Shown here one piece after another: positions 5,577 to 31,658 of a DNA stretch of 64,000 nt. The DNA comes from Candidatus Moraniibacteriota bacterium (GTDB lineage: Bacteria; Patescibacteriota; Minisyncoccia; Moranbacterales; DUUL01): positions 3,300 through 67,299 of the forward strand of contig JALVDV010000005.1 in assembly GCA_027008775.1 (NCBI GenBank). Reading direction: 5' to 3'. Below the pieces are notes generated by a model. That model was not told the origin of the DNA and did no database searches. It was given only the letters and a program-made list of their open reading frames with translations. Every line of letters starts with the position of its first letter. The stretch's first letter is position 1. The position numbers and the translations under genes are program-made.

Positions 5577-5611
5577 GTAAATGGTGCGACACGGACTGAA
5601 GCCAACAAAAA

Positions 5612-5636: not shown

Positions 5637-5669
5637 TGGCTTTTTAAATTACCAATTTAGGGACGGTTT

Positions 5670-16087: not shown

Positions 16088-17074
16088 TTATACTTCTTTC
16101 TCTTTACGTATCTTCCAAATCTTGATATTGCCCAAATTAAATTCGCCGTATTTCTTGAATCCCTTTTCCTCAAGATAAGTTTTGGTTATTTTTTTGTTTG
16201 GGAGCGCTGTGGCTATAATTGTGGCGTTTTTTGACTCTTTGTCCAGAGATTCCTCCATCATTATCTCGCCCAGTTTTGAAAATCGGTGATGTCTATCCAC
16301 GTTAAAATTGGCAAATTCAACAATGCCATCTTCCTGAGGAGTGAAGCTGTTAAAAGCCAGCACTTTCCCATTATAATACAATATGTAAAACTTTGAGTTA
16401 GGATTTGCGAGCTTGTCATTTAAGCTCCCAAATAAGGCCTGTAGAAGCAATTCTCCATCCTCCAGATGTTCAAATAGTGAGTAGTTTTCCCGATAAATTT
16501 TCTTCATTTCTTCAACTACCTTCTTTTTATTTGCCAGCTCCGGACCGGAAATAGTATCCAGCTTAATGCCTTTAAAGTATTCCAAGAGATTTTTCTTTTT
16601 ATTTTTCTTTAAATATTTTAACACTTCTTTAAAGATCTCTCTGTTGATATCTAATGACGCTATCACATCCTCAACAAATTTCGGATTTGTGGCATCAAAA
16701 GAGTCGGCTAGCGCGCGTAAGAAATTAATCCCTTTTTGTTTTAATCCTTGGGTAATTTCATTTACTTGAACCAAATCAGTCTTGTTAAGATTTTTTTGCG
16801 TCCAACGTTCAACTTTGTCTGTTGCATCATCAAATTCGGCATATTTTGCAAAAATTTTATCCAGCAATTCTTTGTCGTATTTACGGGTCAGATATAAAGC
16901 TTTTTCACCATCACCCTTTTTGTCTTGTTCCAGAGCTAAAAATGCTTTTAAACCATTAGTACCGTATTTTTTAATAAAATCAGTATTTTTGATTTTTTCG
17001 GGGATGGTGTTTTTGTCCTTTTTGTCGTCTTTTTGTCTGGTGTTTTCTATTGTAAATTGTGGTTTGTTTTCCAT
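16088..17074 (-). CDS. Hypothetical protein with C-terminal GNAT acetyltransferase-like domain
   Basis: 328 aa; C-terminus ...HHRFSKLGEIMMEESL...YLEEKGFKKYGEF resembles GNAT motifs A/B. Confidence 0.5.
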   Translation of the reverse strand: MENKPQFTIENTRQKDDKKDKNTIPEKIKNTDFIKKYGTNGLKAFLALEQDKKGDGEKALYLTRKYDKELLDKIFAKYAEFDDATDKVERWTQKNLNKTDLVQVNEITQGLKQKGINFLRALADSFDATNPKFVEDVIASLDINREIFKEVLKYLKKNKKKNLLEYFKGIKLDTISGPELANKKKVVEEMKKIYRENYSLFEHLEDGELLLQALFGSLNDKLANPNSKFYILYYNGKVLAFNSFTPQEDGIVEFANFNVDRHHRFSKLGEIMMEESLDKESKNATIIATALPNKKITKTYLEEKGFKKYGEFNLGNIKIWKIRKEKEV

Positions 17075-17106
17075 ATATTTATTTCATTGAACTTTTCCCT
17101 GGTCTT

Positions 17107-17195
17107 GGAAATAGGTTGGTTAATTTTTGTTTTTGGGTTTTGGAGATGGTGGATCAATTGTGCTGTTTTTATTTTTGGGTTTTTAGTATTGGCTG
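17107..17195. repeat. Copy B of the ~90-bp T-rich direct repeat
   Basis: About 85% identical to 13366-13465; 33 bp upstream of the start of the 16088..17074 gene. Confidence 0.6.
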
Positions 17196-17576
17196 TTCAT
17201 TGTTGTTTTTGAAAATATTCGCTATTCTTTCCTTCTGTTTGGGGGCGATATTTTTTGGTAAGTTCCGGGGATTAAAAAAACGAATGTCGTCCGCTTCAGC
17301 GGTATTGATTATTTTTCCGCCTTGAATGTTACAGATAAAATTAAAAACTATTTCGTTCAGCGATGGTTTGTGATAAATTCCGCTTAATTTTTCTATTTTT
17401 ACGCTCAATCCCGTTTATTCTTTGGTTTCCCTGGCAACCGCTTGCCACGGCGACTCCCCTTTCTCCACTCCGCCTCCGGGCAAATTCCACAAATCATAAT
17501 CCCGCCGGTGGCACAATAAAATTTCTTTCTTTTTATTGAAAATAACAGCAAAGACGCCGATGGTAAATTTGGTCAT
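17169..17576 (-). pseudogene. NUDIX hydrolase gene interrupted by in-frame TAA (17416-17418) at the second Glu of the NUDIX box
   Basis: Single frame reads MTKFTIGVFAVIFNKKKEILLCHRRDYDLWNLPGGGVEKGESPWQAVARETKE*TGLSVKIEKLSGIYHK...; the canonical GX5EX7REUXEEXGU box has TAA where GAA is expected. Confidence 0.6.
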
Positions 17577-17613
17577 TGTTGCCACAAATTATTTACGGTT
17601 TTAGAAAGTGAAA

Positions 17614-18354
17614 CTACTCGCTGATTTTAATGTATTCAATCTCCCCTTTGGGGTTGATATACTTTAAAGCCAAAATGGGTTTCTCACTTTTCTTGATTTT
17701 CCAAACCGCCACGGTTGTTTCAGGATGACCATTGTTTAATTTTATATCTAAGCTTTTAGTCAATCCCTTTTTTCTGGCTAAAGTCCAGCTGTATCCAGAG
17801 CGAGAAAAGTGGGATTTGTTGTCAGAAGTAATAATTACTAGAGCCGGAGCCGGGTCCCAACCGGATTCGTCCAGTTTTGTGGGATGAATAGTCTCACCGG
17901 TGGGAGTGCCGGCCGAACCCTTGAAATCGTAAATAACATAGTAAAAAATTTTATCTCCCGTGGCTTTGTGAATACTGTTTAATTCTGTCAGCCGACCGGT
18001 TTCTTTGATTTTAAAAGTTGCTTGTCCGGTCAGGGAAATTACATTCTTTTTTATGTCGTCATAAGTCGTGTTTTTCTTGGGAACATTTTTGTAATCTCGC
18101 AAGCGATATTTTATATTTATTTCTTCCCCCACCTTAGCTGTCCGCACGAAATGTATCTTGTCTTTCTTTCCTTGTTGCTCCTCCATAGTTTTTTGCGCTT
18201 TTTCTACAATACTTTTAGCTGACTGCTTGCTCCCTTTTTTGTCTGTTGATGTACCAGTCTTGTTGTTTTTGCCACATCCACTCAAGACTATTACTAAAAA
18301 CAAAACAAAGAATATAGCTAGTCCTTGAGTGATAATTTTATTTTTTTTGTTCAT
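17614..18354 (-). CDS. Lipoprotein, hypothetical
   Basis: 246 aa; signal peptide plus lipobox LSGC. Confidence 0.6.
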   Translation of the reverse strand: MNKKNKIITQGLAIFFVLFLVIVLSGCGKNNKTGTSTDKKGSKQSAKSIVEKAQKTMEEQQGKKDKIHFVRTAKVGEEINIKYRLRDYKNVPKKNTTYDDIKKNVISLTGQATFKIKETGRLTELNSIHKATGDKIFYYVIYDFKGSAGTPTGETIHPTKLDESGWDPAPALVIITSDNKSHFSRSGYSWTLARKKGLTKSLDIKLNNGHPETTVAVWKIKKSEKPILALKYINPKGEIEYIKISE

Positions 18355-18520
18355 AGTTTTAAGTTTAAAAAATTTAATAGCCGATATTTTTAATTACTGG
18401 CGCTAATGAGTCATAAAAAGTTTTAGCGCCACCCTGCCCTTGTGATAACTGAAAGCTGTTGGTCTAAACCAATTATATTATATTTTTCTTTTTTGAAAAA
18501 GATACATTCCCCCTGGATTG

Positions 18521-20825
18521 ATTTATAGAAGTAGAAATTTGATAGGTCTATTTGAGGTGGGGATTTCGGACAGGAAGTTATAAATCTACAAAAGTAGAAA
18601 TTTGATAGGTCTATTTGAGAAAAATGACCTTACCTACCACTATGGAAATCTACAAAAGTAGAAATTTGATAGGTCTATTTGAGGATAAGGGGAATAGACC
18701 ACGGAGAAAATCTACAAAAGTAGAAATTTGATAGGTCTATTTGAGCTGCGTTGTATTGCAAATCATCGCCGTATCTACAAAAGTAGAAATTTGATAGGTC
18801 TATTTGAGCTGTTATTATGGACAAGAAATTAAGACAATCTACAAAAGTAGAAATTTGATAGGTCTATTTGAGTTTGCCAATGTCATCAATTATCCTAGAA
18901 TCTACAAAAGTAGAAATTTGATAGGTCTATTTGAGAAAACACCCCTTAATTCACCTAAATTATCTACAAAAGTAGAAATTTGATAGGTCTATTTGAGGCT
19001 GGCAGGGAAGAAGGTTTAAGACTGCATCTACAAAAGTAGAAATTTGATAGGTCTATTTGAGTACCACTTTATCACCTTTTTTTATGTCATCTACAAAAGT
19101 AGAAATTTGATAGGTCTATTTGAGTACCTCGTCTGGTTCAAGATTCTTATCATCTACAAAAGTAGAAATTTGATAGGTCTATTTGAGCAAACGCTTTGCC
19201 AGATTCTTTTTCCGATCTACAAAAGTAGAAATTTGATAGGTCTATTTGAGAGGAGATTGCCTAAAGGTAGCTACTACATCTACAAAAGTAGAAATTTGAT
19301 AGGTCTATTTGAGAAAGGGAAGGAATTTGTTGAGTTTTTCAATCTACAAAAGTAGAAATTTGATAGGTCTATTTGAGACGGTGGCCGATGAGTATTACCA
19401 CCGAATCTACAAAAGTAGAAATTTGATAGGTCTATTTGAGGATATAATCCCATGCGATTGGGTCTTGATCTACAAAAGTAGAAATTTGATAGGTCTATTT
19501 GAGTAGGAAATGACACTGTCCCGGTTATTATCTACAAAAGTAGAAATTTGATAGGTCTATTTGAGCATCCTCATAAAAGCGAAAATAAAAGTATCTACAA
19601 AAGTAGAAATTTGATAGGTCTATTTGAGTAACAAAAAAATCAACCCTGCTATAAATCTACAAAAGTAGAAATTTGATAGGTCTATTTGAGCCTGATTTCC
19701 TCTTTATCAAAGCAACAATCTACAAAAGTAGAAATTTGATAGGTCTATTTGAGGGTCTCCGTCAGCAATGACTGGTGAGAATCTACAAAAGTAGAAATTT
19801 GATAGGTCTATTTGAGCAATAGCCGATGAGTATTACCACCACGATCTACAAAAGTAGAAATTTGATAGGTCTATTTGAGAATATCCCTATATTATAGCTA
19901 TATTATAATCTACAAAAGTAGAAATTTGATAGGTCTATTTGAGAAGATTAGAAGTAAGATAATCGCCAGTATCTACAAAAGTAGAAATTTGATAGGTCTA
20001 TTTGAGCTGTTACATGGACGGAGCAAGGTAAGAATCTACAAAAGTAGAAATTTGATAGGTCTATTTGAGAGACCGTGAGCGGTGCGGGATGAAGTAATCT
20101 ACAAAAGTAGAAATTTGATAGGTCTATTTGAGTTCGTGAATTATTGGACGGAGCCAAACAATCTACAAAAGTAGAAATTTGATAGGTCTATTTGAGTTGG
20201 CGAAGGAAGCTTGATTGACTTCGTATCTACAAAAGTAGAAATTTGATAGGTCTATTTGAGTCCAAGGTGTAAATGTTGCAAATTATCATCTACAAAAGTA
20301 GAAATTTGATAGGTCTATTTGAGATAGGGGGGAGTCTGCAAGGTAGCAGTTATCTACAAAAGTAGAAATTTGATAGGTCTATTTGAGTTCATTAGACGGG
20401 CGGGAACGGAACAAATCTACAAAAGTAGAAATTTGATAGGTCTATTTGAGAAAGAAGGTTCTGGCCAGTCAGTATCATCTACAAAAGTAGAAATTTGATA
20501 GGTCTATTTGAGCTACAAGACAGACAAGGAATGGCAAATCTACAAAAGTAGAAATTTGATAGGTCTATTTGAGACAACGATGCGGCCGGCTGGCTTGTTT
20601 ATCTACAAAAGTAGAAATTTGATAGGTCTATTTGAGGTAATAGTCAAGCACCGCCTTTTTAAATCTACAAAAGTAGAAATTTGATAGGTCTATTTGAGTG
20701 GTGGTGCTAATTATTACACGCTAGAATCTACAAAAGTAGAAATTTGATAGGTCTATTTGAGCTCTGAAACACCAAAGCTTCATAGGATAATCTACAAAAG
20801 TAGAAATTTGATAGGTCTATTTGAG
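18521..20825 (-). CRISPR. Type V-A CRISPR array, 37 repeats of 36 bp and 36 spacers of 25-28 bp
   Basis: Plus-strand unit ATCTACAAAAGTAGAAATTTGATAGGTCTATTTGAG; crRNA strand CTCAAATAGACCTATCAAATTTCTACTTTTGTAGAT carries the Cas12a hairpin UCUACU..GUAGA; period 61-64 bp; leader-distal repeat (18521-18556) is degenerate (3 mismatches in the hairpin). Confidence 0.97.
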
Positions 20826-20990
20826 ACCACAAATCCTTTATTTAAGCCAAAAAGATGCAAGTTGTGGCACATAGCCCCAACGACTTTTTGGCTTAAACAA
20901 GGCAAAACCGAGACATTCAAATTGCGGTTTTGTATTTTTTGAACAGACCCACGGAAATTTCCACTTTTCTTAAGTTGTAAAAGTTCAATC
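20826..20990 (-). promoter_or_regulatory. CRISPR leader with 14-bp perfect inverted repeat (20841-20854 / 20884-20897)
   Basis: AT-rich 165 bp between the cas2 stop and the first repeat; TTTAAGCCAAAAAG ... CTTTTTGGCTTAAA. Confidence 0.55.
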
Positions 20991-21272
20991 TTAACTGATA
21001 TAAATGAGGTCGGACTCTTCATGTTTAGCGTAACCGTATCTTTTAACTTTTTTCTTGCATCCTTCACATAACCGGAAAATATAAATACTATCGGCATTAC
21101 TGAATTTTTTCTGATATCTTAATTCTACCTCAGTTAAAATATTTTGCAAGACTCGTTCACTATCACGTACTTGCCAAACCGAGTATTGAATACGATTGCC
21201 GTATTTTTCCAAAAAACGCGCAAATTTGGTCCTTGTTTTGTCATTTTCAAAATCGTAAGAAACAATCAGCAT
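20991..21272 (-). CDS. cas2: CRISPR-associated endoribonuclease Cas2
   Basis: 93 aa; MLIVSYDFENDKTRTKFARFLEKYG..., Cas2 size and fold pattern; immediately downstream of cas1. Confidence 0.85.
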   Translation of the reverse strand: MLIVSYDFENDKTRTKFARFLEKYGNRIQYSVWQVRDSERVLQNILTEVELRYQKKFSNADSIYIFRLCEGCKKKVKRYGYAKHEESDLIYIS

Positions 21273-21281
21273 AAATTCATT

Positions 21282-22280
21282 TTAACGAATTACGAAATCT
21301 TTTACTTCACCCTCTTCATTTAAGATTAAATAATAGTAGTTGCGAATATAGTGATAGATGTCCATTTTGTATCGTAAAATTTCTTGTAAGAAAATTTTGG
21401 CGTACTTCCCACTATTTTTGTAAGACAAATAGTATTGTCCTTGTTTGTAGCCAAAATCTTTTTTGTCAAATTGTCCCAAGGTATGCATTTTAAACAGAGC
21501 CTTTTCAATTATACAGCGAAATGGTTCCATCATATCACAGGCTAAAGATTTTCTCTGAAAAAATAGTTGATGATAAATTCCTTTATAAGTATCAAAACCG
21601 TAAACTCGCAAAATGGAATCAATAAAATGAAAAAGGAAATTGTAGCCCATATCAAGCAGGATGTTATTTTCATCAACTTTTCCTCTGGGCACCCGCCGGT
21701 ACCAGTTTATTTTGGAAAAATAAGCGCTAAAAAAGTCTTTGGAAATTACGCCTTCTATTCCTCGGAGTGACGCCAAATCGTTAGTATTTTTTATTTTCTG
21801 GCGCATTTCTCTTTTATATTGCAAACGAGATTTCTTGTTAATTTTTTTAATTCCGGCACTACGCAACAAGGCAATTGAATTTCGTAATTTATTGGCAACG
21901 ATTTTTTGGGAAATTTTCAGAGATTGTTCCGGAGACAAAGAATATTGTTTTTGGCGCAAAATATAATTTCCTTCGGCATAAGCGCCCGTGTTAGCATAAG
22001 TCTCAAAATTACGTTTCAAAAAATACAAGGAGGCGCCGACTCGTGAAATTTTTTGCAATAACTTGCTAGTAATGGTTAGGTCTCCAATAATAAAAATTGC
22101 CACCAATTTGTTGACGGGAATTTTATCCTTAGTTTTTCCATCTTCTCTAATTAAAATATTTTCATTACGCAAACTCAATTGGCAATCGGGAATTTTCATT
22201 GCATCTAAGAAAAATATTTGTCTTTCTTTGAAATCGGGCGCCTGGATCATGGTGTTGAAATTAAAAGTTAACTGCCGCAT
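21282..22280 (-). CDS. cas1: CRISPR-associated integrase Cas1 (longest ORF extends to 22355; start at MRQ 22280 or MIQ 22250 more likely)
   Basis: About 330 aa; Cas1-like N-terminal beta-domain (IFFLDAMKIPDCQLSLRNENILIRED), position between cas4 and cas2. Confidence 0.85.
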   Translation of the reverse strand: MRQLTFNFNTMIQAPDFKERQIFFLDAMKIPDCQLSLRNENILIREDGKTKDKIPVNKLVAIFIIGDLTITSKLLQKISRVGASLYFLKRNFETYANTGAYAEGNYILRQKQYSLSPEQSLKISQKIVANKLRNSIALLRSAGIKKINKKSRLQYKREMRQKIKNTNDLASLRGIEGVISKDFFSAYFSKINWYRRVPRGKVDENNILLDMGYNFLFHFIDSILRVYGFDTYKGIYHQLFFQRKSLACDMMEPFRCIIEKALFKMHTLGQFDKKDFGYKQGQYYLSYKNSGKYAKIFLQEILRYKMDIYHYIRNYYYLILNEEGEVKDFVIR

Positions 22281-22881
22281 TTTGACGAGTTGCTCCACTT
22301 TCCTGACGGCATAACTCACGATAAATACAAGCAGAACATTTAGCCTTGCTAACATTTGTGTTTTTATGAAAGCTGAAACTTCTTATTTCAGAAAGTGTTT
22401 GCCAAAATAACTCTTTCTGTTTTTCGCCAATTTCAACCGGATAAACACGATTATCAACCAATGAATAAAGTTTTATTTTTTTAACGGGATATCCCATTTC
22501 CTCCAAGCACAATTTTTGAGCATATAATTGAAATAGATATCCGTCATAGACTTTTTTGATCATTCGCTTTCTTTCAATCAACTCCTGTTTTTTGGTGTCA
22601 TAGATATCAATCTTACCGATTATTCCGTGTCGGGCGGAGAAAACTTCCATTCCTTGTAAAATATTTTTTCGGGAAGAAAATTTTCCTTCTTCTACGCTTT
22701 TATGCGCAATTGTACCGGCAATCTGCGGGCGCGCTTTATATTGCGTTTTATCAAAACTTTCATAAACGCTGTGGAAATACAACGATCGCGGGCAAAAAGT
22801 GAAATCATTGATTTTAGAAATTTGGATATAATCGTAGTACATATTTTTTTGCTTAAATGAAAACAGCGCATTGTAGCACAA
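22261..22881 (-). CDS. cas4: CRISPR-associated exonuclease Cas4
   Basis: 206 aa; N-terminal CPRSLYF and C-terminal Cys cluster CSACIYRELC (RecB-like nuclease with Fe-S cysteines). Confidence 0.8.
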   Translation of the reverse strand: MCYNALFSFKQKNMYYDYIQISKINDFTFCPRSLYFHSVYESFDKTQYKARPQIAGTIAHKSVEEGKFSSRKNILQGMEVFSARHGIIGKIDIYDTKKQELIERKRMIKKVYDGYLFQLYAQKLCLEEMGYPVKKIKLYSLVDNRVYPVEIGEKQKELFWQTLSEIRSFSFHKNTNVSKAKCSACIYRELCRQESGATRQNAAVNF

Positions 22882-22917
22882 ACACGCTGTTTTGTCTAGA
22901 TGTCTATAGCAGGACCA

Positions 22918-25900
22918 TTAGTTATTATTTATTGCTCTTCTTTCAAATTCTGGATAAATAAGATTATAAGCCGCCAAAGTATCTGGAGAATCTATTCCAA
23001 GCTCATTATTTCCTATTTCAAAATCGCAAAACTGACATTTTTGCGTAATTTTTATATATTTTTTAATTCCGTCTTTATTAGTGAAATTAAATTGTAGGCA
23101 TTCAGGGCAAAAAGAGCTACTTTTACCAGTTGGCAAATACTTTATAATTCCCGCTTGTTTTAATTTTTTGATCTCTGCAAAGTAAATTGTTTGCCCCAAT
23201 TTTGGCGGAACTAAATCAAAATCATTTTCAATTTTTCCAAGTCTTCTGTAAAGAGCCCATTCAAATTCCCTGCTTATTGCCCTGCCGTTTTTACTGTGGT
23301 CATCCTTGAATTGAGCCGATAGGTCTTCAAGGTGAATAATCGCTTGGTTGTTAAATTCTTTTTCAATCAAATACGCTATCACACCTGCAATATTGCTTGC
23401 CAAAGCTTCTTTTGTGTTTTTAGGCAAAGTATCTATTGAAATTTGTCCTATTTTTATGAGTGGCAATACTCGTTCATTAAATATCTTCAACTTGTGTTCC
23501 AACACTTTTATCAAAAAAGCAGAAATGAAATTTTCTTTAACATCTTCTGTAATATTCCCATTTAAATACAAATAACTTGCATTTATTCCAAATTTTTTAG
23601 AATTTATTCCATTAAATTTAAGCTGAATTGTTTTTGTTTTATCAACAAACCCAGGTTCAGCCACTATAAGGTTTTCTACCTGCTCAATGTTCAAATCTGC
23701 AAAAGTGATATACATTAGTTGATTTACAACTGATGAAATATCAGCATTCATAATCACTTTATCTTTAATAACTTTTGCATAACTTAAATTTTCTTGGCTT
23801 ATTTCTTTTTCTATTAAGTGCTTGGTGTATTTTGTATAAGGCTTATTCTCATCAAACAAAAGCGATGGGTTTAAAAATATTTTAACTGCACCTTCTTGAT
23901 TTTCATCAAATATCTTTTTGTAATCTATGTAGTAAACCTGTATTTTCTGAAACTTTACTCTACCTTCCTCAATCTTTCCAAAAACAGCAGACACAAGTTC
24001 TGATTCACCCCTATCCAAACCAATTCTTACCGCATTTTTTAAGTTTTCATTAACCACTTTGTTTAATTCAAATATTCTTGTCTCCAAATCTTCATCTTGC
24101 GCAAAAGCTGGCAAAAAGTCTTCTTCTTCTTTTGCGTTTTTTGTAATAGTAAAGACAATGCTTAGTCTATCTTTACCACGTCTTGTTTTGCTTGCTAATT
24201 CTTTTAGCTCTTCACTACTTTGAGTATCAAGTCCTAATTCTAGGAAAATCTTAATCTCTGGGTTTAGTCTAATTGATTCAAAATCTTGTTTTTTAATACT
24301 TTGGAGTAATTCTTTTTCCTCCTTTAAGTATCTTCTGTTTTGCCTGTAATTTCCTTTTACTCCTGAGCTAGTAAGTAAAAACAAATTGCTAAATTGCAAA
24401 TTGTTTGGGTTGTTAAATTTCTTTTGTGCTTCTTGAATTAGTTTTATTAATTTACCACTATTTACATTTGCAACTAAAACAAAATTATAAAGCTCTGTAA
24501 AATCTTTTTTAAAGTCAGCTACATCGCTGTAATCTTTCTCTACAATTGAAATTGATTTTTCAGCAAACGAATGACTCAACTCAATATGACTAAATCGATT
24601 TTTTGAATTACAAATAAGCTTATCTACGACACCTATAAATTTATCAGCTTCTTTTTGTTCTTGTCCTCCAAGTGATGCATATTCTATAAGCTTTTTAAAC
24701 TCTTCTACTACTTTACATTTAAGTGCTGCTGCTTTTGTGCTATTAATAGATCCTGCATCAAGCAAGTATTTAATCAAAAACGCTTTAAATGCAAAAATTG
24801 TATGCCATTTGCCAGCTTTAAAAAATGGGATGAGCTCGCCCAAATTAGCACTTATCAAAGTCTTTGCAGAACGGAGAGTTAAAGATTCTATTTTGTAAAT
24901 TTTCTTGTCTCCAACAGGTTCATTTAATCTCTCAAGAGTGTATAAAAATTCTTTTTTAAATTTTTTGGGAACAAGTAATAAATCAAAGTTTTCATCTTTT
25001 TTATCTAAAACAAGCAATGCCAGATGGCTTAAATTTTTTTTATCCTTTTTATATGTTGCTATTTTTGCTTTTATATTGCCAATATATTTTGCAACTTTGT
25101 TTTTATTTTGAATAAAGTTAGATTTGTTTATTATGTGTGTATAATTTGTACCTGCTGTGTGCGCCGCCTTTTGTTTTTTATTGAGCAAAATTTCAATTAT
25201 TTGAGATTCTTCCAAGTTATCTTCTGACTTGTTGTTTATGATTTTTGCTAGCTCATTAGCTGCATTTTTGCGCTCTGGTTTTATTTGATATTTTTTGTTT
25301 TCTTTTCCAATCAAGTTATCAATTAAAACTTTTAAAATTCTGTTTCGCAAAAATTTAATTAGAAAATCATCTTTAATATTTGAGGGTAAATCTGGCAAGT
25401 ATTTTTTAAAAATATTTATTGCAGAATTTTTTATGTTCTGATCTATTTTTATTTTATTTACTCTTATTTTGTCTTTATTAGATTTTACAAATTCTTCCAA
25501 ATCAGAACCAATAATCTGCTTTGCAAGCTCATCTACCTCTTTTTTCAATCCTTTTATTTCAGTTTTATAACCTTCCGCAATAATTTTGTAAAACTTTTTT
25601 GTCCATTTCCCCGCTTCCTCTACTGTAATAAAGTTATCATTAATTGATTTTCCTAGATAATTCATCGTTGCTTTAAATGCATTTTTATGACCTGCTACAA
25701 ATCTGCTTATGTAATTTAAGTTATCTTTAAGATCCCCCGCCCAAACTTTTTGGGTCAACTTATCTTCTTCTTCTTTAATCTTTTTTTCTCTTTCTTCGAG
25801 AGTAGTTTGTCTTGTAAGAGTATGTTCGTTTAGCGATGCTGTTATGACTTCGTGAAATATGGAGAGTGATTCTTTGAGCTTATCTAAAATTTTTGATAGT

Positions 25901-26487
25901 TTTGCTAAAGTTTTTTGCAACTCTGCAAACTCTTGCGGAACAAGATCATCAGAATGATAATTTTGCTTTTGGATCAAATCAATTGCTTCTTTTAAGGTTG
26001 GCGCTTTTCGTTTTAGCAACTCATGTTCTATATCGAGTGAGCTTTTAAAGATTTCATCTAATATTTTTCTTGTATTTTTAGGAGAAAAATTGGGTGTATT
26101 TTTTTCTGTTAGTTGTTTTTCGAGCGAAATGAGTGATTCGTTTGTTTTTTTAAATAAAGTTGAGAAGAACCCTTTAAGTTTACGACTATTTAAGCGCAAG
26201 CTATCTGCTCGCCCAGAACCTGAAATAAACAAACCAAACTCTGACCCAATGATATGCGGAGAAAGTTTTAGCTTGTAGAGTAAACTTTTGTATTCATCTT
26301 TTTTTACTTCTTCTTTGTCAAATAATTCTATTACTTTCTTTAAAATCTCTATAAGTCTGGAACACAATTCTTCAGGATCAGCTGTATTCTTTTTATAAGT
26401 CTCGATTGCATTTTTTAAATTAGACTCAAAATTTTCATTAACTTTCAAAGCCAGTCTAATAGCAGATGTTTTTTGATACTTGTTCAT
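22918..26487 (-). CDS. cas12a2: Second type V effector, Cas12a2-like (RuvC nuclease with C-terminal zinc ribbon, no Nuc domain)
   Basis: 1189 aa, 19 bp downstream of cas12a. Motifs: N-terminal NKYQKTSAIRLALKV (like the Cas12a WED start), RuvC-I IGLDRGESE (~aa 826), RuvC-II IIHLEDLSAQ (~1054), CPEC...CQFC (~1127-1154), RuvC-III DSPDTLAAYNL (~1166). Confidence 0.7.
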   Translation of the reverse strand: MNKYQKTSAIRLALKVNENFESNLKNAIETYKKNTADPEELCSRLIEILKKVIELFDKEEVKKDEYKSLLYKLKLSPHIIGSEFGLFISGSGRADSLRLNSRKLKGFFSTLFKKTNESLISLEKQLTEKNTPNFSPKNTRKILDEIFKSSLDIEHELLKRKAPTLKEAIDLIQKQNYHSDDLVPQEFAELQKTLAKLSKILDKLKESLSIFHEVITASLNEHTLTRQTTLEEREKKIKEEEDKLTQKVWAGDLKDNLNYISRFVAGHKNAFKATMNYLGKSINDNFITVEEAGKWTKKFYKIIAEGYKTEIKGLKKEVDELAKQIIGSDLEEFVKSNKDKIRVNKIKIDQNIKNSAINIFKKYLPDLPSNIKDDFLIKFLRNRILKVLIDNLIGKENKKYQIKPERKNAANELAKIINNKSEDNLEESQIIEILLNKKQKAAHTAGTNYTHIINKSNFIQNKNKVAKYIGNIKAKIATYKKDKKNLSHLALLVLDKKDENFDLLLVPKKFKKEFLYTLERLNEPVGDKKIYKIESLTLRSAKTLISANLGELIPFFKAGKWHTIFAFKAFLIKYLLDAGSINSTKAAALKCKVVEEFKKLIEYASLGGQEQKEADKFIGVVDKLICNSKNRFSHIELSHSFAEKSISIVEKDYSDVADFKKDFTELYNFVLVANVNSGKLIKLIQEAQKKFNNPNNLQFSNLFLLTSSGVKGNYRQNRRYLKEEKELLQSIKKQDFESIRLNPEIKIFLELGLDTQSSEELKELASKTRRGKDRLSIVFTITKNAKEEEDFLPAFAQDEDLETRIFELNKVVNENLKNAVRIGLDRGESELVSAVFGKIEEGRVKFQKIQVYYIDYKKIFDENQEGAVKIFLNPSLLFDENKPYTKYTKHLIEKEISQENLSYAKVIKDKVIMNADISSVVNQLMYITFADLNIEQVENLIVAEPGFVDKTKTIQLKFNGINSKKFGINASYLYLNGNITEDVKENFISAFLIKVLEHKLKIFNERVLPLIKIGQISIDTLPKNTKEALASNIAGVIAYLIEKEFNNQAIIHLEDLSAQFKDDHSKNGRAISREFEWALYRRLGKIENDFDLVPPKLGQTIYFAEIKKLKQAGIIKYLPTGKSSSFCPECLQFNFTNKDGIKKYIKITQKCQFCDFEIGNNELGIDSPDTLAAYNLIYPEFERRAINNN

Positions 26488-26506
26488 ATTTGCATTTTAG
26501 CATATT

Positions 26507-29500
26507 TTATAAATCTCTTTGTTCACTTCTCTGTTGGTGTGTATACTCATCCCACTCTTTCAAAATGACTTTTGCCTTGTTTTTTTCCGCAAGATTTTGT
26601 TTTGCGAGTATTCCTTTTCTCGCAATATTATATGCACCAACTGCGTCGCCGTTTATAAGATGGTTTGCTTTTCTTGTATCAAAGTGACAACTTGGACATT
26701 GTAAAACATCTCTTTTGTCATCCTCTATGTCAGACCAGTTATCTTCAAAACGCAAGTTAGTCCAGTATTTAAGGGCCATTTTAAGTTTTGAAAAACTTAC
26801 TTCAATATCGGGAATTTCAAAAATATTTTTGTTAATGGCTAAATCATCCAAATCAACATCCAACAAAGCTTCTTTTAAAATTTTTGTTACATTAATCCTT
26901 TCTACATTATGCTGTTTTTTTCTCCAGACTGATCTATCTATATTGCTGTAAATTGTTTCAAAACCATTTGAATCTGTAAGTAAATAATCTGAACGGAATG
27001 GAATTTCATTGCCGCTGGGATTTTTATATTTATATTCCCATTTGTATTTTACAATAAATCTGTCGTTTTCTTTATCGTAGAATAGTTGCAAGTCTTTTTT
27101 ATCCATCATTTTTCTTATGTCTTTGCTTGAACCAAAATTTACACCCCGTCTTCTGTATCCGCACTTCGGACAAGTTTTTGAGGTAAACTTTGCATCCACA
27201 TAAAACACAACCCCTTGTTGTGAGCCCCATTTGTATTGCGGACCAACAGGTGGAACAAGTTGGTATGCATTTCTTATCCCTCCTGAGGTCTTTTCTTTTA
27301 CAAAGTATTCAAGCTTATGCAGAAGCGCATTTTCAAGTTGCTGATAAATATTTTTTTCAATTTTCATCCTTCCGCGCTTGAAGCCTCTGTTTAGCTCTTC
27401 CATTGTAAGAATCGTGTTATTATCAACAATCATTTCAGCAAGTTTGCGTATAACAAAAGATATGTAACCCTTCTTTAAGTCTTTTATCTGCTCTATTGTT
27501 TTCCAAAGCTTTCTGTTTTTCATTCTTTGCTCCTCCCTTGCAGTTAGTTTTTCCTGAAATTTAATGCCTTCTATTTCATTTAAAGAATCTATCTCTTTTA
27601 TATTTCCATCTTTATCAAGCAGGCAATAATAAGCCAAATGCTTTTCTCCTCTGTCTACTCCTATAACAGAGATTTCATCTTTATTATTTTTTATATATTC
27701 TTTAATTTCATCAGCAACTCCCCCCTTTCCTGCCAGCCTGTTTATTTCTATTGGAACATGGAATAATATTTTTGGACTTGCAAATCTCTTTTTTCTGTAA
27801 GGAATTTTATCTGTTTTTGGTTTTTTTAGTTCTGCTTTTGAAACTTTTTCTCTTTCTGACTCTGGCAATGCATCACGGAAAAATACTTCTGCTTGACCGG
27901 ATAGTTTAAATTGCGAATTCTTTTTATTTTCTGCTGAAAACAGCTCCAAAAAGTATAGAGTATGAATGTTTTTTGTTGAATCTGCCTCTTTTTTATCTGA
28001 AAAATCTTTATTGTAAATTTCAAATAACACCAAATTTGTAGGCGGATTCTTTTTGTTTACATTAATAAATTCTATTTCATACATATATTTTTCAAGGGTC
28101 GCAATATAACACATAGCAACTTCATTTCCAGATAAAACACCTTCTTTTTTATCAAGAATGCTTTTTATTTTATTAACAATGCAGTGTAACGGAATTGTGT
28201 TTAATATTTGTTCATCTACCAGATATTTTGACAATTCTTCCATTCTATCAAGTTTAGTACTCTTATCAGAATCATCGTCTTTGTATTCAGTAGAAAACTT
28301 TTTCGCATACAAACTCGACAGTTTTTCATAAGATAATTCAAAATCAACTTTACCTGATTCCAATAAAGCTACTATTTCTTTAAATTTATCTGTTATTGCA
28401 CTAAAATAATTTGTCTTAACAAATTTTTCATTCAAAAATTCTGCAAGCATTTTATTAATCTTTTTTACAGCCGTGTCAGGATTCTCTTTTCGTAATCTTT
28501 CAAGGGTGTAATTTGGTGAAGATTCATTAAAGTACCCTCTCCAACTAGATCCAAACAAGGTTTTATTCTTTAGTAGCTTGTATTCCATTATTTCAAAACC
28601 GTCTAAATTAAAATTGTTTTCTATCCTAAATGGCAATTTAGCATTAATTCCAAGATGATACTTATCATTCTTTTTTAATATAAATGCCTCATACTGATTT
28701 CCCCATCTGTTTTCTGTCTTTTTCAAAGACCATCCATCTGCTAGTTTTTGCCTTTCAAAAGTAAGCTTTATCTTATCCTCAACAACTATCGCTTTCGTAG
28801 CATAATTTCGCGTAGCATTGAATGCTTCGTTGATTTTGTTTTTTCTCGGATTTATTTTTACAATTTCTTGCAAAGCTTTATTTGTGTACAAACTTTCATC
28901 GTCTGCCAATTCAAACAAGTAAAGGAATTTGTTCATATCATTCAAGCGGTAAAACAAAATGCTTAACTTTTCCATGTAGTCATTACGTTTATTTTTGCTT
29001 TCTTTTATCTGTTCACCATGCGCGCTGACATAAGATTTTAAATCTTCAAACAACTCTCTTAAACTTTTATGCTCTGGGCAAGTTTTTTTGTCACAACTTT
29101 CTTCCATTTCTTTTTCTTCAACTGCTGTGTGCCAAGCTCTTCCATTTCTTAATGAATTAAAGTAAAGCTCAAATACTAAAAGTAAGTTATACAAAGCGGC
29201 GTCGCCTGTATCTTCTTGAGAAAATTTTTGTAGTTCTTCTTTTGGTAAGTTCCACGCGCTTTCTTCTTTTACCAATTTATACAAATCTTTTCCTGTAAGA
29301 TTTATTTTTGTCTTTTCTGAGCTGTCTGGATCTTCAACTTTAAACCTAAAAATTTGCACCAACTCACTCAGCGCTATTTCATTCTCATCTAAGAATTTGT
29401 TTACAGAATCAATAACTTGCTTTTCTTCCCCTGTCAATTCATCGTCTTTTTTGTTCTTTAATTCTTCTTTTACTCTTTTTACCGCATCGCGAAATACTTC

Positions 29501-30883
29501 CCAATTTCCAAATGCAAAATTAGATATGAAAGATAGCTGATTTGTATTTAGCCTAAACTCGCCTAATTCAGTCTCCGGGAAATTAAGTTTTTTATTTTCT
29601 TTATCAAGAAGTCCTGTAAATATATCTTTATCCAATAAGTCTACCGCGTATTGCAAAAATGGCTTTCCGTCATAATCATTTGCTACCAATAGGAATTTTT
29701 GCAACTCGTCAATAGTATCAAACTCTAAAAATTCATCTTTACTATCACTGTTTTCATCTTTGTTTTCTTTTCCTAAAATTTGCTTGTAAAGTTTTTTAAA
29801 GAAATCCGGTTTTTTGCCTGACCCTTGCAATTTCTCGTTTAAAAATCTGTTTGCAATCCCAACAGCTTTATTGTATATATCAATTTGAGATTGCGATAAA
29901 ACATTTGCAAAATTTTCAGGTTTAAATATATCTGAGTTTACAGATAATTCTTTGCTTAGCTGTTCATCTAATTTTGCTTTGTAGTCTTTTTCGGCTATTT
30001 GACTTAAATATTTTTGATAGTTTTGTACAAAAAGCTCGGCATTGTCATCAAGAATTCTTGTTGTGATTTGATGTGCGAGGCCTTTTACAATTCCGCTGTT
30101 TTCTGTATCTGAATCATACCCATCGGTATCATATATTTTCGCGCGAATTTGATAGAATTTGCGTAAATAAGTTTTCCATTTATGAAAAAACGAAAATGGA
30201 TTCAATGCGTCTGCTTCTTTACCCCAGCTTATATCTTCTAAATCCCAATCTTGTTCGTCTATATAATGTTTAAAAATCTCAGCTTTTTTTAAATCTTCAA
30301 TAGGAATTTCTCTAAAAGCTTCTACTAATTTATCTGCCCCAGGGTCACCAGCACCTGTTAAAGCATTAAAGTCAATCGTAATATTTCTTTCACCTATCGC
30401 AATTTCTATTGCGTTATTTTTGTTTTTTAAAACCTTGTTTATTGAGCTGGCCAATTCTTTTTTAAGTTTATTTACATTTTTCTCAATATCTGATAAGTCA
30501 TCACTTTCTCTTGATTTTTTGTTTTTATAATCAACTAATTTATTTATAAGTGAGGCAAAATCATCAGAAAGGGATTCTGTATTATCATTTTCACTTAAAA
30601 CCCTGTCTATATACTCTGCATGCAAAGCGGTAACAAGCTTTTTAAACAGAGAAAAAACTCTCGCGCGTTTCTTGTCTCTTTCTAAAAGGTGTACTCCGGT
30701 TTTATTTTTGTTTATAAAATATTTCGCTTTATCTTCCCTTGTAATTTTATCCATACTTGAATACCCTCTCTCGCTTACAATTTCTTCTAGTTCCTCGTCT
30801 ATTAAAACAGGAACGAGTGAGAAGCGAAGCGTTTTTTGTAATGAATACTTGTTCGTAAAATCTTTAAAGCTTTGTGTGGTCAT
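26507..30883 (-). CDS. cas12a: Type V-A effector Cas12a (Cpf1), 1458 aa
   Basis: N-terminal FTNKYSLQKTLRFSLVPV; RuvC-I IGVDRGEKHLAYY; RuvC-II ELNRGFKRGRMKIEKNIYQQLE; RuvC-III GDAVGAYNIARKG. Confidence 0.92.
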   Translation of the reverse strand: MTTQSFKDFTNKYSLQKTLRFSLVPVLIDEELEEIVSERGYSSMDKITREDKAKYFINKNKTGVHLLERDKKRARVFSLFKKLVTALHAEYIDRVLSENDNTESLSDDFASLINKLVDYKNKKSRESDDLSDIEKNVNKLKKELASSINKVLKNKNNAIEIAIGERNITIDFNALTGAGDPGADKLVEAFREIPIEDLKKAEIFKHYIDEQDWDLEDISWGKEADALNPFSFFHKWKTYLRKFYQIRAKIYDTDGYDSDTENSGIVKGLAHQITTRILDDNAELFVQNYQKYLSQIAEKDYKAKLDEQLSKELSVNSDIFKPENFANVLSQSQIDIYNKAVGIANRFLNEKLQGSGKKPDFFKKLYKQILGKENKDENSDSKDEFLEFDTIDELQKFLLVANDYDGKPFLQYAVDLLDKDIFTGLLDKENKKLNFPETELGEFRLNTNQLSFISNFAFGNWEVFRDAVKRVKEELKNKKDDELTGEEKQVIDSVNKFLDENEIALSELVQIFRFKVEDPDSSEKTKINLTGKDLYKLVKEESAWNLPKEELQKFSQEDTGDAALYNLLLVFELYFNSLRNGRAWHTAVEEKEMEESCDKKTCPEHKSLRELFEDLKSYVSAHGEQIKESKNKRNDYMEKLSILFYRLNDMNKFLYLFELADDESLYTNKALQEIVKINPRKNKINEAFNATRNYATKAIVVEDKIKLTFERQKLADGWSLKKTENRWGNQYEAFILKKNDKYHLGINAKLPFRIENNFNLDGFEIMEYKLLKNKTLFGSSWRGYFNESSPNYTLERLRKENPDTAVKKINKMLAEFLNEKFVKTNYFSAITDKFKEIVALLESGKVDFELSYEKLSSLYAKKFSTEYKDDDSDKSTKLDRMEELSKYLVDEQILNTIPLHCIVNKIKSILDKKEGVLSGNEVAMCYIATLEKYMYEIEFINVNKKNPPTNLVLFEIYNKDFSDKKEADSTKNIHTLYFLELFSAENKKNSQFKLSGQAEVFFRDALPESEREKVSKAELKKPKTDKIPYRKKRFASPKILFHVPIEINRLAGKGGVADEIKEYIKNNKDEISVIGVDRGEKHLAYYCLLDKDGNIKEIDSLNEIEGIKFQEKLTAREEQRMKNRKLWKTIEQIKDLKKGYISFVIRKLAEMIVDNNTILTMEELNRGFKRGRMKIEKNIYQQLENALLHKLEYFVKEKTSGGIRNAYQLVPPVGPQYKWGSQQGVVFYVDAKFTSKTCPKCGYRRRGVNFGSSKDIRKMMDKKDLQLFYDKENDRFIVKYKWEYKYKNPSGNEIPFRSDYLLTDSNGFETIYSNIDRSVWRKKQHNVERINVTKILKEALLDVDLDDLAINKNIFEIPDIEVSFSKLKMALKYWTNLRFEDNWSDIEDDKRDVLQCPSCHFDTRKANHLINGDAVGAYNIARKGILAKQNLAEKNKAKVILKEWDEYTHQQRSEQRDL

Positions 30884-30937
30884 AGATAATTTTATTAAAA
30901 CTTATAAATAAACAGAAAAGCTCCCGCAAGGCGAATG

Positions 30938-30993
30938 TGACCACACACAAAAAAAATACCTCACGGAAGCTTCTCAATTTTTGTGTGTGGTCA
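30938..30993. promoter_or_regulatory. 15-bp perfect inverted repeat (TGACCACACACAAAA / TTTTGTGTGTGGTCA) 55 bp upstream of the cas12a start
   Basis: Arms 30938-30952 and 30979-30993, 26-nt spacer containing GAAGCTTC palindrome. Confidence 0.5.
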
Positions 30994-31195
30994 TCATGTC
31001 TTTATAATACAATCTTATCCTTAATAAAGCAAGTTTTGTCTGGCAAACAAAAGCCGTTAAATGTGTTTTATCCCACTAGTTGTTATTCTAAATTTTGTTT
31101 GATTATAAATTTTTTACTTAAAGTTTATCTAACGCTATCCTCATTTTGATAAATATTGCGCAGTCTTTTGATAATTGCCGATAGCTTGGCGGTAG

Positions 31196-31510
31196 CTAAT
31201 TGTTTCTTAGGGCGTGGTTGAGGGTTTTGGCGGTGATTTTGATAATTCTGGCGGTGGTGTATTTTTGTCCGGGGGCGATTTTAGCTTCCACTTTTTGCAA
31301 ATCTCTGACGGTGGAGTTGTTTGCTCGTAAAAAATTGTCTATTTTGGCCAAAAGCTCTCGGGAAATATTTTGCTGATCATTCCATTTTTGCTCGGCTATG
31401 ATTTTCGCCTCCCCCTTTTCGGACGGACTCGGCTTTTTTAATTGCAAAGTTATGATGTCTTCTTGGTTAAGAGAAATAATCAAAATGTTTCTGTGTGTTT
31501 TTTTGGTCAT
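31196..31510 (-). CDS. Short TsaB/YeaZ-like protein (N-terminal ASKHA-fold fragment of the t6A pathway)
   Basis: 104 aa; RNILIISLNQEDIITLQL...ISRELLAKIDNFL...DLQKVEAKIAPGQKYTTARIIKITAKTLNHAL parallels the TsaB N-terminal domain pattern. Confidence 0.45.
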   Translation of the reverse strand: MTKKTHRNILIISLNQEDIITLQLKKPSPSEKGEAKIIAEQKWNDQQNISRELLAKIDNFLRANNSTVRDLQKVEAKIAPGQKYTTARIIKITAKTLNHALRNN

Positions 31511-31658
31511 AATGATTTTTGTGTTTAGTGATAATTAAAATTAACTTTTGCTTAGATGTCAGAGGGAAAGTGAGAAAATGCTCGCAAAAAATATTAAAAA
31601 ATCATCCGGCAAAAAGGACGATTTTTGAAAGACCGGATGATTAGTTTGTTAATCAGTG

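What the first reader, a model, noticed from the sequence alone, without database searches (positions are those of the whole stretch)
18521..20825. Array polarity and spacer content: Cas12a-type repeat on the minus strand, degenerate distal repeat, and two spacers sharing a 19-nt core
The 36 spacers are short (25-28 nt). The repeat's hairpin (UCUACUUUUGUAGA) is on the minus strand, so transcription runs from the leader at 20826-20990 toward 18521. The leader-distal repeat at 18521-18556 has 3 substitutions that destroy the hairpin. Spacer 19378-19404 (acggtgGCCGATGAGTATTACCACCga) and spacer 19817-19843 (caataGCCGATGAGTATTACCACCacg) share a 19-nt core but differ in both flanks. This implies independent acquisitions from two diverged alleles of the same target, i.e. 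recurrent encounters with variants of one invader. One spacer (19880-19907) is low-complexity (tatattatagctatattata).
Basis: seen in the sequence. Interest (0 to 1): 0.55.

Follow-up and report, generated by a model that had tools for sequence, protein, structure and literature searches.

The report
Ordinary Cas12a CRISPR array, polarity confirmed
This is a normal type V-A (Cas12a) CRISPR array read on the minus strand, in a candidate-phyla (Parcubacteria-like) bacterium; its two look-alike spacers are separate captures from related phage-like coding sequence, and the neighbouring "second effector" is an already published RNA-sensing nuclease (MG60_8 Cas12a3).

Summary
There are 37 repeats of 36 nt. 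Thirty-six are identical and one, the cas-distal repeat, carries 3 substitutions. The 36 spacers are 25-28 nt. Spacers 19378-19404 and 19817-19843 share an exact 19-nt core.

Polarity on the minus strand is right, but not because of the hairpin, which is palindromic and folds on both strands. It follows from the Cas12a handle AAUUUCUACUUUUGUAGAU at the repeat's 3' end, the orientation cas12a, second effector, cas4, cas1, cas2, leader, array, a leader conserved across species, and decayed cas-distal repeats in at least six related arrays.

The twin spacers are independent acquisitions. They are offset by 1 nt, 5 of 8 flank positions differ, and every repeat is identical. Whether the sources were two alleles, two paralogous repeats or two phages is unresolved, because no protospacer was found in any collection.

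A second case appeared: window spacer S11 and spacer M1 of a sister strain overlap on opposite strands of a phage helicase-loader-like gene, differing only at wobble positions. Their flanks fit a TTTV PAM and a GAA(A) flank on the RNA.

The 1189-aa second effector is identical to published MG60_8 Cas12a3. Strand bias toward mRNA-complementary guides is suggestive only. The finding is ordinary and of low interest.

The parts
18521..20825 (-). Type V-A CRISPR array: 37 repeats of 36 nt (minus strand CTCAAATAGACCTATCAAATTTCTACTTTTGTAGAT) and 36 spacers of 25-28 nt. S1 is leader-proximal at 20762-20789 and S36 is at 18557-18583.
   Evidence: the array is identical in source contig ENA ERZ27262687 k141_209517
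18521..18556 (-). Degenerate terminal (leader-distal) repeat. Three substitutions fall in the loop and 3' stem arm (GUAGAU becomes AUAAAU) and the hairpin is lost.
   Evidence: The same three substitutions occur in sister strain L002. Last repeats are degenerate in the same part in L045, L046, L047, L048, L051 and L062.
20826..20990 (-). Leader between the cas2 stop codon and repeat 1. The motif TTGCATCTTTTTGGCTTAAAT is conserved across species.
20835..20902 (-). Long leader hairpin (outer stem TTTAAGCCAAAAAG/CTTTTTGGCTTAAA plus a variable inner stem), ending about 9 nt before repeat 1.
   Evidence: z -3.7; 12 of 35 pairs with compensatory changes among 3 independent leaders; L064
20903..20932 (-). 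Shorter leader hairpin, CAAAACCG...CGGTTTTG.
19378..19404 (-). Spacer S23, the older twin; crRNA sense TCGGTGGTAATACTCATCGGCCACCGT.
19817..19843 (-). Spacer S16, the newer twin; crRNA sense CGTGGTGGTAATACTCATCGGCTATTG. The core is offset by 1 nt relative to S23.
20133..20160 (-). Spacer S11. It overlaps spacer M1 of sister strain L002 on the opposite strand (20/24 identical). The target family is a phage DUF6291 / DnaD-like helicase-loader protein with the motif NYWTEPN.
19880..19907 (-). Spacer S15, AT-rich, made of an 11-nt direct duplication. It has no open frame in crRNA sense.
20991..21272 (-). cas2 (93 aa)
21282..22355 (-). Type V cas1. These are ORF coordinates; gene callers give 322-332 aa.
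22261..22881 (-). Type V cas4. These are ORF coordinates; gene callers give 193 aa.
22918..26487 (-). Second effector, 1189 aa, identical to published MG60_8 Cas12a3. RuvC residues D825, E1054 and D1169 and the zinc ribbon C1127, C1130, C1151, C1154 are present.
26507..30883 (-). cas12a (1458-aa ORF; 1415 aa by one gene caller)

Best explanation
The feature is a canonical type V-A CRISPR array.

Inferred from what is established for Cas12a systems:
- It is transcribed on the minus strand from the leader next to cas2.
- Each repeat's 3' end forms the Cas12a handle (AAUUUCUACUUUUGUAGAU), and the pre-crRNA is cut upstream of it. Each crRNA is therefore handle plus the downstream spacer.
- Cas4-Cas1-Cas2 insert new spacers at the leader-proximal repeat. 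S1 at 20762-20789 is then the youngest and S36 the oldest. The last repeat is never renewed and has decayed. It is not needed as a handle for any spacer.
- The same crRNAs most likely load two effectors. Cas12a would cut DNA next to a 5'-TTTV PAM. The adjacent MG60_8 Cas12a3 would sense complementary RNA with a purine-rich 3' flank, then cleave tRNA CCA tails and arrest growth, as shown for other members of that clade.

Shown here:
- Spacers S23 (older) and S16 (newer) are two separate acquisitions from homologous, diverged protein-coding DNA. The only frame open in both reads [T][V/I]ADEYYH[R/H].

The most likely history is that an invader variant differing in the PAM-proximal and PAM-distal parts of the S23 protospacer escaped S23. 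The same PAM-rich site was then re-sampled one nucleotide over. This step is inferred.
For: The published V-A motif UCUAC[N3-5]GUAGAU at the repeat 3' end is described in PMC7757703.

All cas genes lie on the minus strand upstream of the array.

Leader sequence and structure are conserved in other species.

In L045, L046, L047, L048, L051, L062 and L002, oriented by the handle, the last repeat is the degenerate one.

Sister strain L002 has a 100% identical Cas2 and the same repeat, terminal repeat and trailer. It shares none of its 8 spacers with the window, as expected for a turning-over array with a fixed trailer end.

For the twins:
- The 19-nt core is far beyond chance.
- The register is shifted by 1 nt, and 5 of 8 comparable flank positions differ. 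Four of these are transitions, and 3 fall at the wobble position of the only frame open in both. This was read directly from the sequences.
- All 36 working repeats are identical, so mutation within the array cannot explain the flanks.

S11 and M1 are independent support for repeated sampling of conserved invader genes:
- They are 20/24 identical on opposite strands, and every comparable difference is at the wobble position of F-V-N-Y-W-T-E-P-N.
- That motif marks a phage protein family (phrog_19415, DUF6291, DnaD-like helicase loader).
- Their mutual flanks read TTC and TTCG on the 5' side.
- On the coding strand the 3' flank reads GAA.
- These fit TTTV and a purine-rich RNA flank.

For the second effector:
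- It is identical to MG60_8 Cas12a3.
- A profile of it and its relatives hits Cas12a3 structures at E 6e-192 and 3e-178, against 2.5e-47 for Cas12a2.
- The same tandem arrangement of cas12a and a Cas12a3-like gene recurs in L062, L065 and L067.
Against: No protospacer was found. The PAM, the target identity for S16 and S23, and the escape scenario are therefore all inferred.

No sigma-70-like promoter was detected on the minus strand inside the leader. The nearest lies inside cas2 at 21149-21122.

No expression data are available.

MG60_8 itself has not been tested biochemically, and it is only about 20-30% identical to its nearest relatives apart from one 74-75% identical homologue.

The wobble argument for S16 and S23 rests on only five differences.
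Confidence: 0.85

Rival explanations
1. The twin spacers come from two paralogous copies of a repeated motif within one invader genome, for example a duplicated module in one tail-fibre gene. They would then not record two alleles met at different times.
For: A wobble-relaxed version of the core (GCNGAYGARTATTAYCAYC) hit 28 IMG/VR contigs. Twelve of these lie in long tail-fibre-like proteins with L.GLQGG[TA]ADEYYHLT (phrog_5668 tail fiber). One of them, L025, carries the motif twice in a single protein. The core is identical at all six wobble positions while the flanks diverge. That pattern suits a conserved module boundary.
Against: The spacer flanks encode [T][V/I]ADEYYH[R/H], not GG[TA]ADEYYHL, so membership of that tail-fibre family is not shown. 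Seven spacers separate the twins in the array, which fits acquisitions at different times. No contig carrying both protospacers was found.
Confidence: 0.3
2. The twins arose by duplication of one spacer inside the array (repeat-mediated recombination), followed by point mutation.
For: Recombination between repeats does occur in CRISPR arrays (general knowledge). No result obtained here favours it.
Against: The core is offset by 1 nt relative to the repeats, and 5 of 8 flank positions differ. Meanwhile all 36 working repeats (1296 nt) carry no substitution at all. Neighbouring spacers are not duplicated.
Confidence: 0.02
3. The array is transcribed from the + strand, from the 18521 side, so the degenerate repeat is leader-proximal.
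For: The stem-loop is palindromic and folds on both strands. A promoter-like site exists near the 18521 end, but it lies on the minus strand at 18499-18472.
Against: Only the minus strand places the hairpin at the repeat's 3' end with the conserved AAUUUCUAC...GUAGAU handle. The cas operon and the conserved leader are on the other side. Degenerate repeats are cas-distal in seven related arrays.
Confidence: 0.02
4. Selection by the RNA-sensing Cas12a3 shapes the spacer repertoire, so guides are enriched for the mRNA-complementary orientation beyond what the PAM causes.
For: A codon-model strand classifier was 77% accurate on held-out viral 27-mers.
- It window spacers antisense to coding.
- Across five arrays next to Cas12a3-like genes it, with P=0.012 against a TTTV-only null of 55.6%.
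- Spacers are pyrimidine-rich in crRNA sense (purine 0.457).
- S11, S16 and S23 are all antisense to their inferred frames.
Against: The window alone is not significant (P=0.12). 69/103 is also below what an all-antisense repertoire would give (P=0.012). The pooling was post hoc. The only clear Cas12a-only control is tiny: L049 3/9 and L051 6/8. True protospacers and transcription data are lacking. M1 is sense.
Confidence: 0.25

Closest known systems
Type V-A (Cas12a/Cpf1) CRISPR arrays, with 36-nt repeats ending in UCUAC[N3-5]GUAGAU (Zetsche 2015 from my own knowledge; Goltsman et al. 2020, PMC7757703)
   Same: Repeat length, the 3' stem-loop handle with a 4-nt loop, the cas12a-cas4-cas1-cas2-array layout, spacers of about 27 nt, and no tracrRNA-like element detected by Rfam.
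   Different: Nothing essential. The host is an uncultivated Parcubacteria-like bacterium, and the same repeat occurs in MAGs so named. The Cas12a is long, at 1415-1458 aa.
Tandem Cas12a plus Cas12a2 systems sharing one array (Dmytrenko et al. 2023, PMC9811890)
   Same: Two Cas12a-family effectors lie in tandem upstream of cas4/1/2 and a single array with the Cas12a-type repeat. The proposed logic is a DNA cutter plus an RNA-triggered back-up.
   Different: The second effector here groups with Cas12a3, not Cas12a2. The profile gives E 6e-192 and 3e-178 against Cas12a3 structures and 2.5e-47 against SuCas12a2.
Cas12a3 systems (Dmytrenko et al. 2026, PMC12851939), specifically the entry MG60_8Cas12a3
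   Same: The 1189-aa protein at 22918-26487 is identical in sequence to MG60_8Cas12a3 in Supplementary Data 1 and has the same length as in Supplementary Table 1. The clade has a RuvC domain, a zinc ribbon, a purine-rich RNA flank preference, and RNA-triggered cleavage of tRNA CCA tails.
   Different: The paper lists no contig, cas genes or array for MG60_8. The window supplies that context. MG60_8 was not among the orthologues named as tested in the sections I read.
Repeated or overlapping spacers against one invader gene in natural arrays, as an arms-race signature (general CRISPR population-genomics knowledge, not checked in papers here)
   Same: There are two spacers from the same site in diverged versions within one array, and overlapping spacers in two strains (S11 and M1).
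   Different: Nothing distinctive was shown. Primed adaptation, which creates such clusters in type I systems, is not known for type V-A and is not needed here.

Membership tests
Type V-A CRISPR array | Direct repeats of about 36 nt whose 3' end carries UCUAC[N3-5]GUAGAU preceded by AAUU | tested here: met
   The minus-strand repeat ends in AAATTTCTACTTTTGTAGAT in 36 of 37 copies. The stem folds at -4.8 kcal/mol. The motif definition is in PMC7757703.
Type V-A CRISPR array | Adjacent cas12a plus the adaptation genes cas4, cas1 and cas2, in the same orientation as the handle | tested here: met
   TIGR04330 Cas12a scores 393 bits against a cut-off of 300. TIGR04329 type V Cas1 scores 303.7 against 300. 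TIGR04328 type V Cas4 scores 203 against 70. Cas2 is also present. All are on the minus strand upstream of the array.
Type V-A CRISPR array | Unique spacers of foreign origin flanked by a 5'-TTTV PAM in the target | tested here: inconclusive
   Spacers are unique and there is no self-match of 16 nt or more. No protospacer was found in GenBank phages (with a positive control), PLSDB, IMG/VR or JGI metagenomes. Only the indirect flanks TTC, TTCG and C from overlapping spacers are available.
Type V-A CRISPR array | Polarised growth: conserved leader at the cas-proximal end and a degenerate terminal repeat at the far end | tested here: met
Type V-A CRISPR array | Transcription and Cas12a-mediated processing into crRNAs with a 5' handle | not testable with these tools
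   No RNA data are available. No consensus promoter was found in the leader.
Cas12a3 (the second effector that would use this array) | Placement in the Cas12a3 clade rather than Cas12a, Cas12a2 or Cas12a4 | tested here: met
   The sequence is identical to MG60_8Cas12a3 as classified by the authors. A profile of it plus 16 relatives hits 21we/9hlx (Cas12a3) at 5.7e-192 and 3e-178 over the full length, 8d49 (Cas12a2) at 2.5e-47, and Cas12a at 1e-13 or weaker. Caveat: the protein alone finds no PDB chain, so the profile hit is carried by its relatives.
Cas12a3 (the second effector that would use this array) | Intact RuvC motifs and a C-terminal zinc ribbon | tested here: met
   The invariant columns D825, E1054, D1169 and C1127, C1130, C1151, C1154 are present in the window protein (sequence).
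Cas12a3 (the second effector that would use this array) | tRNA-loading insertion domain, and absence of the Cas12a2 aromatic clamp | not tested
   This would need a structure model or a residue-level alignment to Ba1Cas12a3. I did not run either.
Cas12a3 (the second effector that would use this array) | RNA-triggered cleavage of tRNA 3' CCA tails, with a purine-rich 3' flank on the RNA target | not testable with these tools
   This is a biochemical property. It is shown for other orthologues in PMC12851939.

The most novel reading that the evidence does not exclude
In arrays shared by Cas12a and a Cas12a3-like RNA sensor, the spacer repertoire would be skewed toward mRNA-complementary guides beyond the bias a TTTV PAM creates. 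The RNA-sensing partner would then shape what a DNA-targeting array retains. The S23 to S16 pair would record one escape-and-recapture cycle on a conserved phage gene. In that cycle the older, mismatched guide may still serve a mismatch-tolerant RNA sensor. Such tolerance has so far been shown only for Cas12a2.
Probability: 0.2. Interest if true: 0.5.

Novelty: already known. Interest (0 to 1): 0.22.

Why it matters
It matters little in itself. It is a correct routine annotation of a type V-A array.

Its modest value is context. It gives the native locus for the published but context-less MG60_8 Cas12a3: a tandem cas12a, the adaptation genes, a 36-spacer array and a conserved structured leader.

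It also shows that two strains of one candidate-phyla (CPR) population sampled the same phage replication gene independently.

If the orientation skew held up in a large, properly controlled set, it would show that an RNA-triggered partner nuclease influences which spacers a shared array keeps.

Tried and rejected
Searches for protospacers:
1. All 36 spacers against GenBank phages gave nothing. A repeat with a lambda 27-mer as positive control found only the control. PLSDB plasmids gave nothing.
2. The exact 19-nt core had 0 hits in IMG/VR. It had 3 hits in JGI metagenomes. All were GC-rich with unrelated flanks, so they are chance.
3. Prefixes of 18-20 nt from S1, S4, S12 and S17 in IMG/VR gave either no hit or chance hits only (19-21/27, no extension, no PAM).

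Attempt to reach the true S11 target through the protein database:
- I used a profile of the NYWTEPN domain, including two synthetic 'FV' variants.
- Only 92 short candidates were scored, and none contained FVNYWTEPN.

S2 and M4 share 12 nt. This is borderline, because 3 of 30 shuffles reach that score. A scan gave 8 hits, and two read as a WGANYYT motif that I recalled as methyltransferase-like, without testing. The flanks do not fit, so I make no claim.

Other spacer matches dismissed as chance:
- S11 and S13 share 10 nt.
- S33 has a 15-mer match in L002 (about 0.1 expected after multiple testing).

Family-level assignment of S16 and S23 to tail fibres is suggestive only, because the flanks differ from the family motif.

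Other negatives:
- Rfam reports nothing for the array region; the only hit above its family threshold in 17000-32000 is the tRNA at 31659-31730.
- The promoter and terminator scan is not above shuffles.
- Word-indexed homologue searches for the second effector returned only itself and one 74% relative. phmmer against the PDB found nothing.
- A host-trained strand classifier (72% accuracy) gave 21/36, which is uninformative.
Full report
**1. Observation**

The region 18521-20825 holds 37 copies of a 36-nt repeat.
- Thirty-six are identical. The copy at 18521-18556 has three substitutions, at 18523, 18526 and 18528.
- The 36 spacers measure 25-28 nt, 20 of them 27 nt.
- On the minus strand the repeat reads CTCAAATAGACCTATCAAATTTCTACTTTTGTAGAT.
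- Its last 15 nt form a 5-bp stem with a 4-nt loop (-4.8 kcal/mol). The degenerate copy loses this pairing (-0.5 kcal/mol with a different structure).
- The stem is palindromic and folds equally on the + strand.
- Spacers 19378-19404 (S23, counted from the leader) and 19817-19843 (S16) share an exact 19-nt core. The expected number of such pairs by chance is 3.7e-7. The similarity score was 19 against at most 12 in 30 shuffles.
- Spacer 19880-19907 has 18% GC and is an 11-nt direct duplication.

**2. Context**

All neighbouring genes are on the minus strand:
- cas12a at 26507-30883 (TIGR04330, 393 bits);
- an 1189-aa ORF at 22918-26487;
- type V cas4, cas1 and cas2 at 22881-20991;
- a 165-nt leader, then the array.

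The window is part of ENA ERZ27262687 contig k141_209517. The same or nearly the same repeat occurs in MAGs labelled Parcubacteria or Patescibacteria. The host is therefore most likely a candidate-phyla (CPR) bacterium.

**3. Polarity**

Four independent lines agree.
- (a) Only the minus strand puts the stem-loop at the repeat's 3' end with the published V-A motif UCUAC[N3-5]GUAGAU preceded by AAUU (PMC7757703).
- (b) The cas operon points into the array.
- (c) The sequence just upstream of repeat 1 is conserved in other species, as ...TTGCATCTTTTTGGCTTAAAT... in L046, L047 and L064, and partly in L049.
- (d) When related arrays are oriented by the handle, the last repeat is the degenerate one in L045, L046, L047, L048, L051 and L062. 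The damage always falls in the hairpin part.

Sister strain L002 (GCA_027038515.1) adds to this. Its Cas2 is 100% identical and it has the same repeat. It also carries the same three terminal-repeat substitutions and the same trailer, yet none of its 8 spacers is shared with the window. The trailer end is therefore ancestral and fixed while the spacers turn over.

No RNA data exist. The consensus scan found no promoter inside the leader. Transcription itself is therefore inferred.

**4. The twin spacers**

- In crRNA sense S23 is TCGGTGGTAATACTCATCGGCCACCGT and S16 is CGTGGTGGTAATACTCATCGGCTATTG.
- The core sits one nucleotide further from the repeat in S16.
- Five of the eight comparable flank positions differ, and four of these are transitions.
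- Only one frame is open in both, on the window + strand. It reads T-V-A-D-E-Y-Y-H-R against x-I-A-D-E-Y-Y-H-H, with three of the five differences at wobble positions.
- All working repeats are identical. Duplication within the array followed by drift is therefore excluded, and these are independent acquisitions from homologous coding DNA.
- S23 would meet a shifted PAM, two PAM-proximal mismatches and four distal mismatches on an S16-type target. This fits escape followed by re-acquisition, which is inference.

I could not tell alleles from paralogues.
- A wobble-relaxed core hit 28 IMG/VR contigs.
- Twelve of these lie in long tail-fibre-like proteins with L.GLQGG[TA]ADEYYHLT. One of the three such proteins scanned matched a tail-fibre PHROG family.
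- One protein, L025, carries the motif twice.
- The spacer flanks do not encode that family's flanks, so this assignment is only a lead.

**5. A second, clearer case**

- Window spacer S11 (20133-20160) and spacer M1 of strain L002 overlap on opposite strands and are 20/24 identical (score 15).
- All comparable differences fall at the wobble positions of F-V-N-Y-W-T-E-P-N.
- The shared 17-mer hit ten IMG/VR contigs.
- Nine of these lie in one protein family, with a C-terminal ...F[YF]NYWTEPN.S.TKMRFE.EKTWD..RRL..W domain. This is phrog_19415 combined with DUF6291 or DnaD-like helicase-loader N-termini.
- None is an exact protospacer; the best is 22/27.
- Two strains therefore sampled the same phage replication gene independently.

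The overlaps give an indirect view of the flanks.
- The 5' flank of S11 in the M1 allele is TTC.
- The 5' flank of M1 in the S11 allele is TTCG. This is a Phe codon plus G, so TTTG is one synonymous change away.
- Position -1 of S23 in the S16 allele is C.
- On the coding strand the 3' flank of the S11 target reads GAA.

These fit a TTTV PAM and the purine-rich RNA flank reported for the Cas12a2 and Cas12a3 clades. They do not prove it.

**6. Searches for real protospacers failed**

- GenBank phages gave nothing. A positive control worked.
- PLSDB gave nothing.
- IMG/VR gave nothing exact.
- JGI metagenomes gave three chance hits.
- The protein database gave nothing useful.
- There is no self-target in the window or in related contigs.

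**7. The second effector**

- The 1189-aa protein has no Pfam or NCBIfam hit.
- It matches two PADLOC 'Cas12a' models over its full length (E 3.5e-47).
- It is identical to 'MG60_8Cas12a3' in Supplementary Data 1 of Dmytrenko et al. 2026. Passages covering all 1189 residues match, and the length agrees with Supplementary Table 1.
- That entry came from Goltsman et al. 2020, who had already noted divergent type V effectors encoded next to Cas12a and sharing its repeat.
- A profile of the protein and 16 relatives hits Cas12a3 structures at 5.7e-192 and 3e-178, Cas12a2 at 2.5e-47, and Cas12a only weakly.
- The RuvC and zinc-ribbon residues are intact.
- The same tandem layout recurs in L062, L065 and L067.
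- L064 has the identical repeat, but its Cas12a3-like protein is only about 31% identical.

MG60_8 itself remains untested as far as I read.

**8. Transcribed-strand bias**

No protospacers were available, so I inferred orientation with a codon model. It was trained on long ORFs of the fetched viral contigs and was 77% accurate on held-out 27-mers.
- 24 of 36 window spacers are called antisense to coding, meaning they could pair with mRNA. Spacers are also pyrimidine-rich in crRNA sense (purine 0.457).
- A TTTV PAM alone favours the antisense strand. 57% of such sites lie there, and the classifier would.6% antisense. The window result is therefore not significant (P=0.12).
- Pooling five arrays next to Cas12a3-like genes gives 69/103. 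That is P=0.012 against the PAM-only null, and also P=0.012 below a fully antisense repertoire.
- The pooling was post hoc, and the Cas12a-only control is tiny. This is a lead, not a result.

**9. Verdict**

'Alleles of one invader', the PAM and the strand bias remain open.

Everything belongs to known kinds: a type V-A array, a decayed terminal repeat, repeated sampling of conserved phage genes, and a tandem partner nuclease that is already published. Interest is low.

Noticed in passing
window 20835-20932 (minus strand), inside the leader 20826-20990: The leader folds into two hairpins just upstream of repeat 1 (MFE -47.3 kcal/mol, z -3.7). The architecture recurs in leaders of other CPR V-A arrays (L046, L049, L064), with inner-stem sequences that differ but stay complementary. 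RNAalifold on 3 independent leaders found 12 of 35 pairs with both sides changed. An invariant TTGCATC sits in the 3' part. The function is unknown; it could be an integration anchor, a promoter element or an RNA structure. Too few sequences are available for a firm covariation test.
   Followed up: partly
window 22918-26487 (-): The ORF between cas12a and cas4 is identical to the published MG60_8 Cas12a3, for which the paper lists no genomic context. The window supplies that context: a tandem cas12a, cas4/1/2 and a 36-spacer array. Apart from one 74-75% identical homologue, its nearest relatives are only about 20-30% identical.
   Followed up: yes
L064 (GCA_054024795.1 JBPMOD010000005.1) 1187-8464; also L062, L065, L067: L064 carries the identical 36-nt repeat, but its Cas12a3-like effector is only about 31% identical to the window's. 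The repeat is therefore far more conserved than the partner nuclease. Tandem cas12a plus a Cas12a3-like gene recurs in several MAGs. L062 has a nucleotidyltransferase toxin-antitoxin-like pair inserted before cas4. L065 has a type II (Cas9) locus immediately downstream of the V-A array.
   Followed up: partly
protein cluster of window 26507-30883: The 90%-identity cluster of this Cas12a includes an 822-aa and a 460-aa product on one NCBI contig of 55.8 kb. This may be a split or pseudogenised cas12a in another strain, which would leave the Cas12a3 partner as the only intact effector there.
   Followed up: no
window 20699-20725 (S2) and L002 spacer M4: S2 and M4 share 12 nt on opposite strands. 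This is borderline, because 3 of 30 shuffles reach that score. Read together they encode ...YYFR[E/G]GANYYTL.... Two of the 8 IMG/VR hits to the S2 17-mer show a WGANYYT motif that I recalled as methyltransferase-like, without testing it. They may mark a second gene sampled by both strains.
   Followed up: partly
window 31659-31730 (-): A tRNA gene (Rfam RF00005, 66.6 bits) lies about 0.8 kb upstream of cas12a. I did not examine whether it marks an integration site for the CRISPR-cas island.
   Followed up: no
L002 6286-12023 compared with the window downstream of the TrmB-like gene: Downstream of the shared TrmB-family gene the sister strain carries different genes, including a MoxR-type AAA ATPase. 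The neighbourhood of the array therefore varies between strains with identical Cas2.
   Followed up: no
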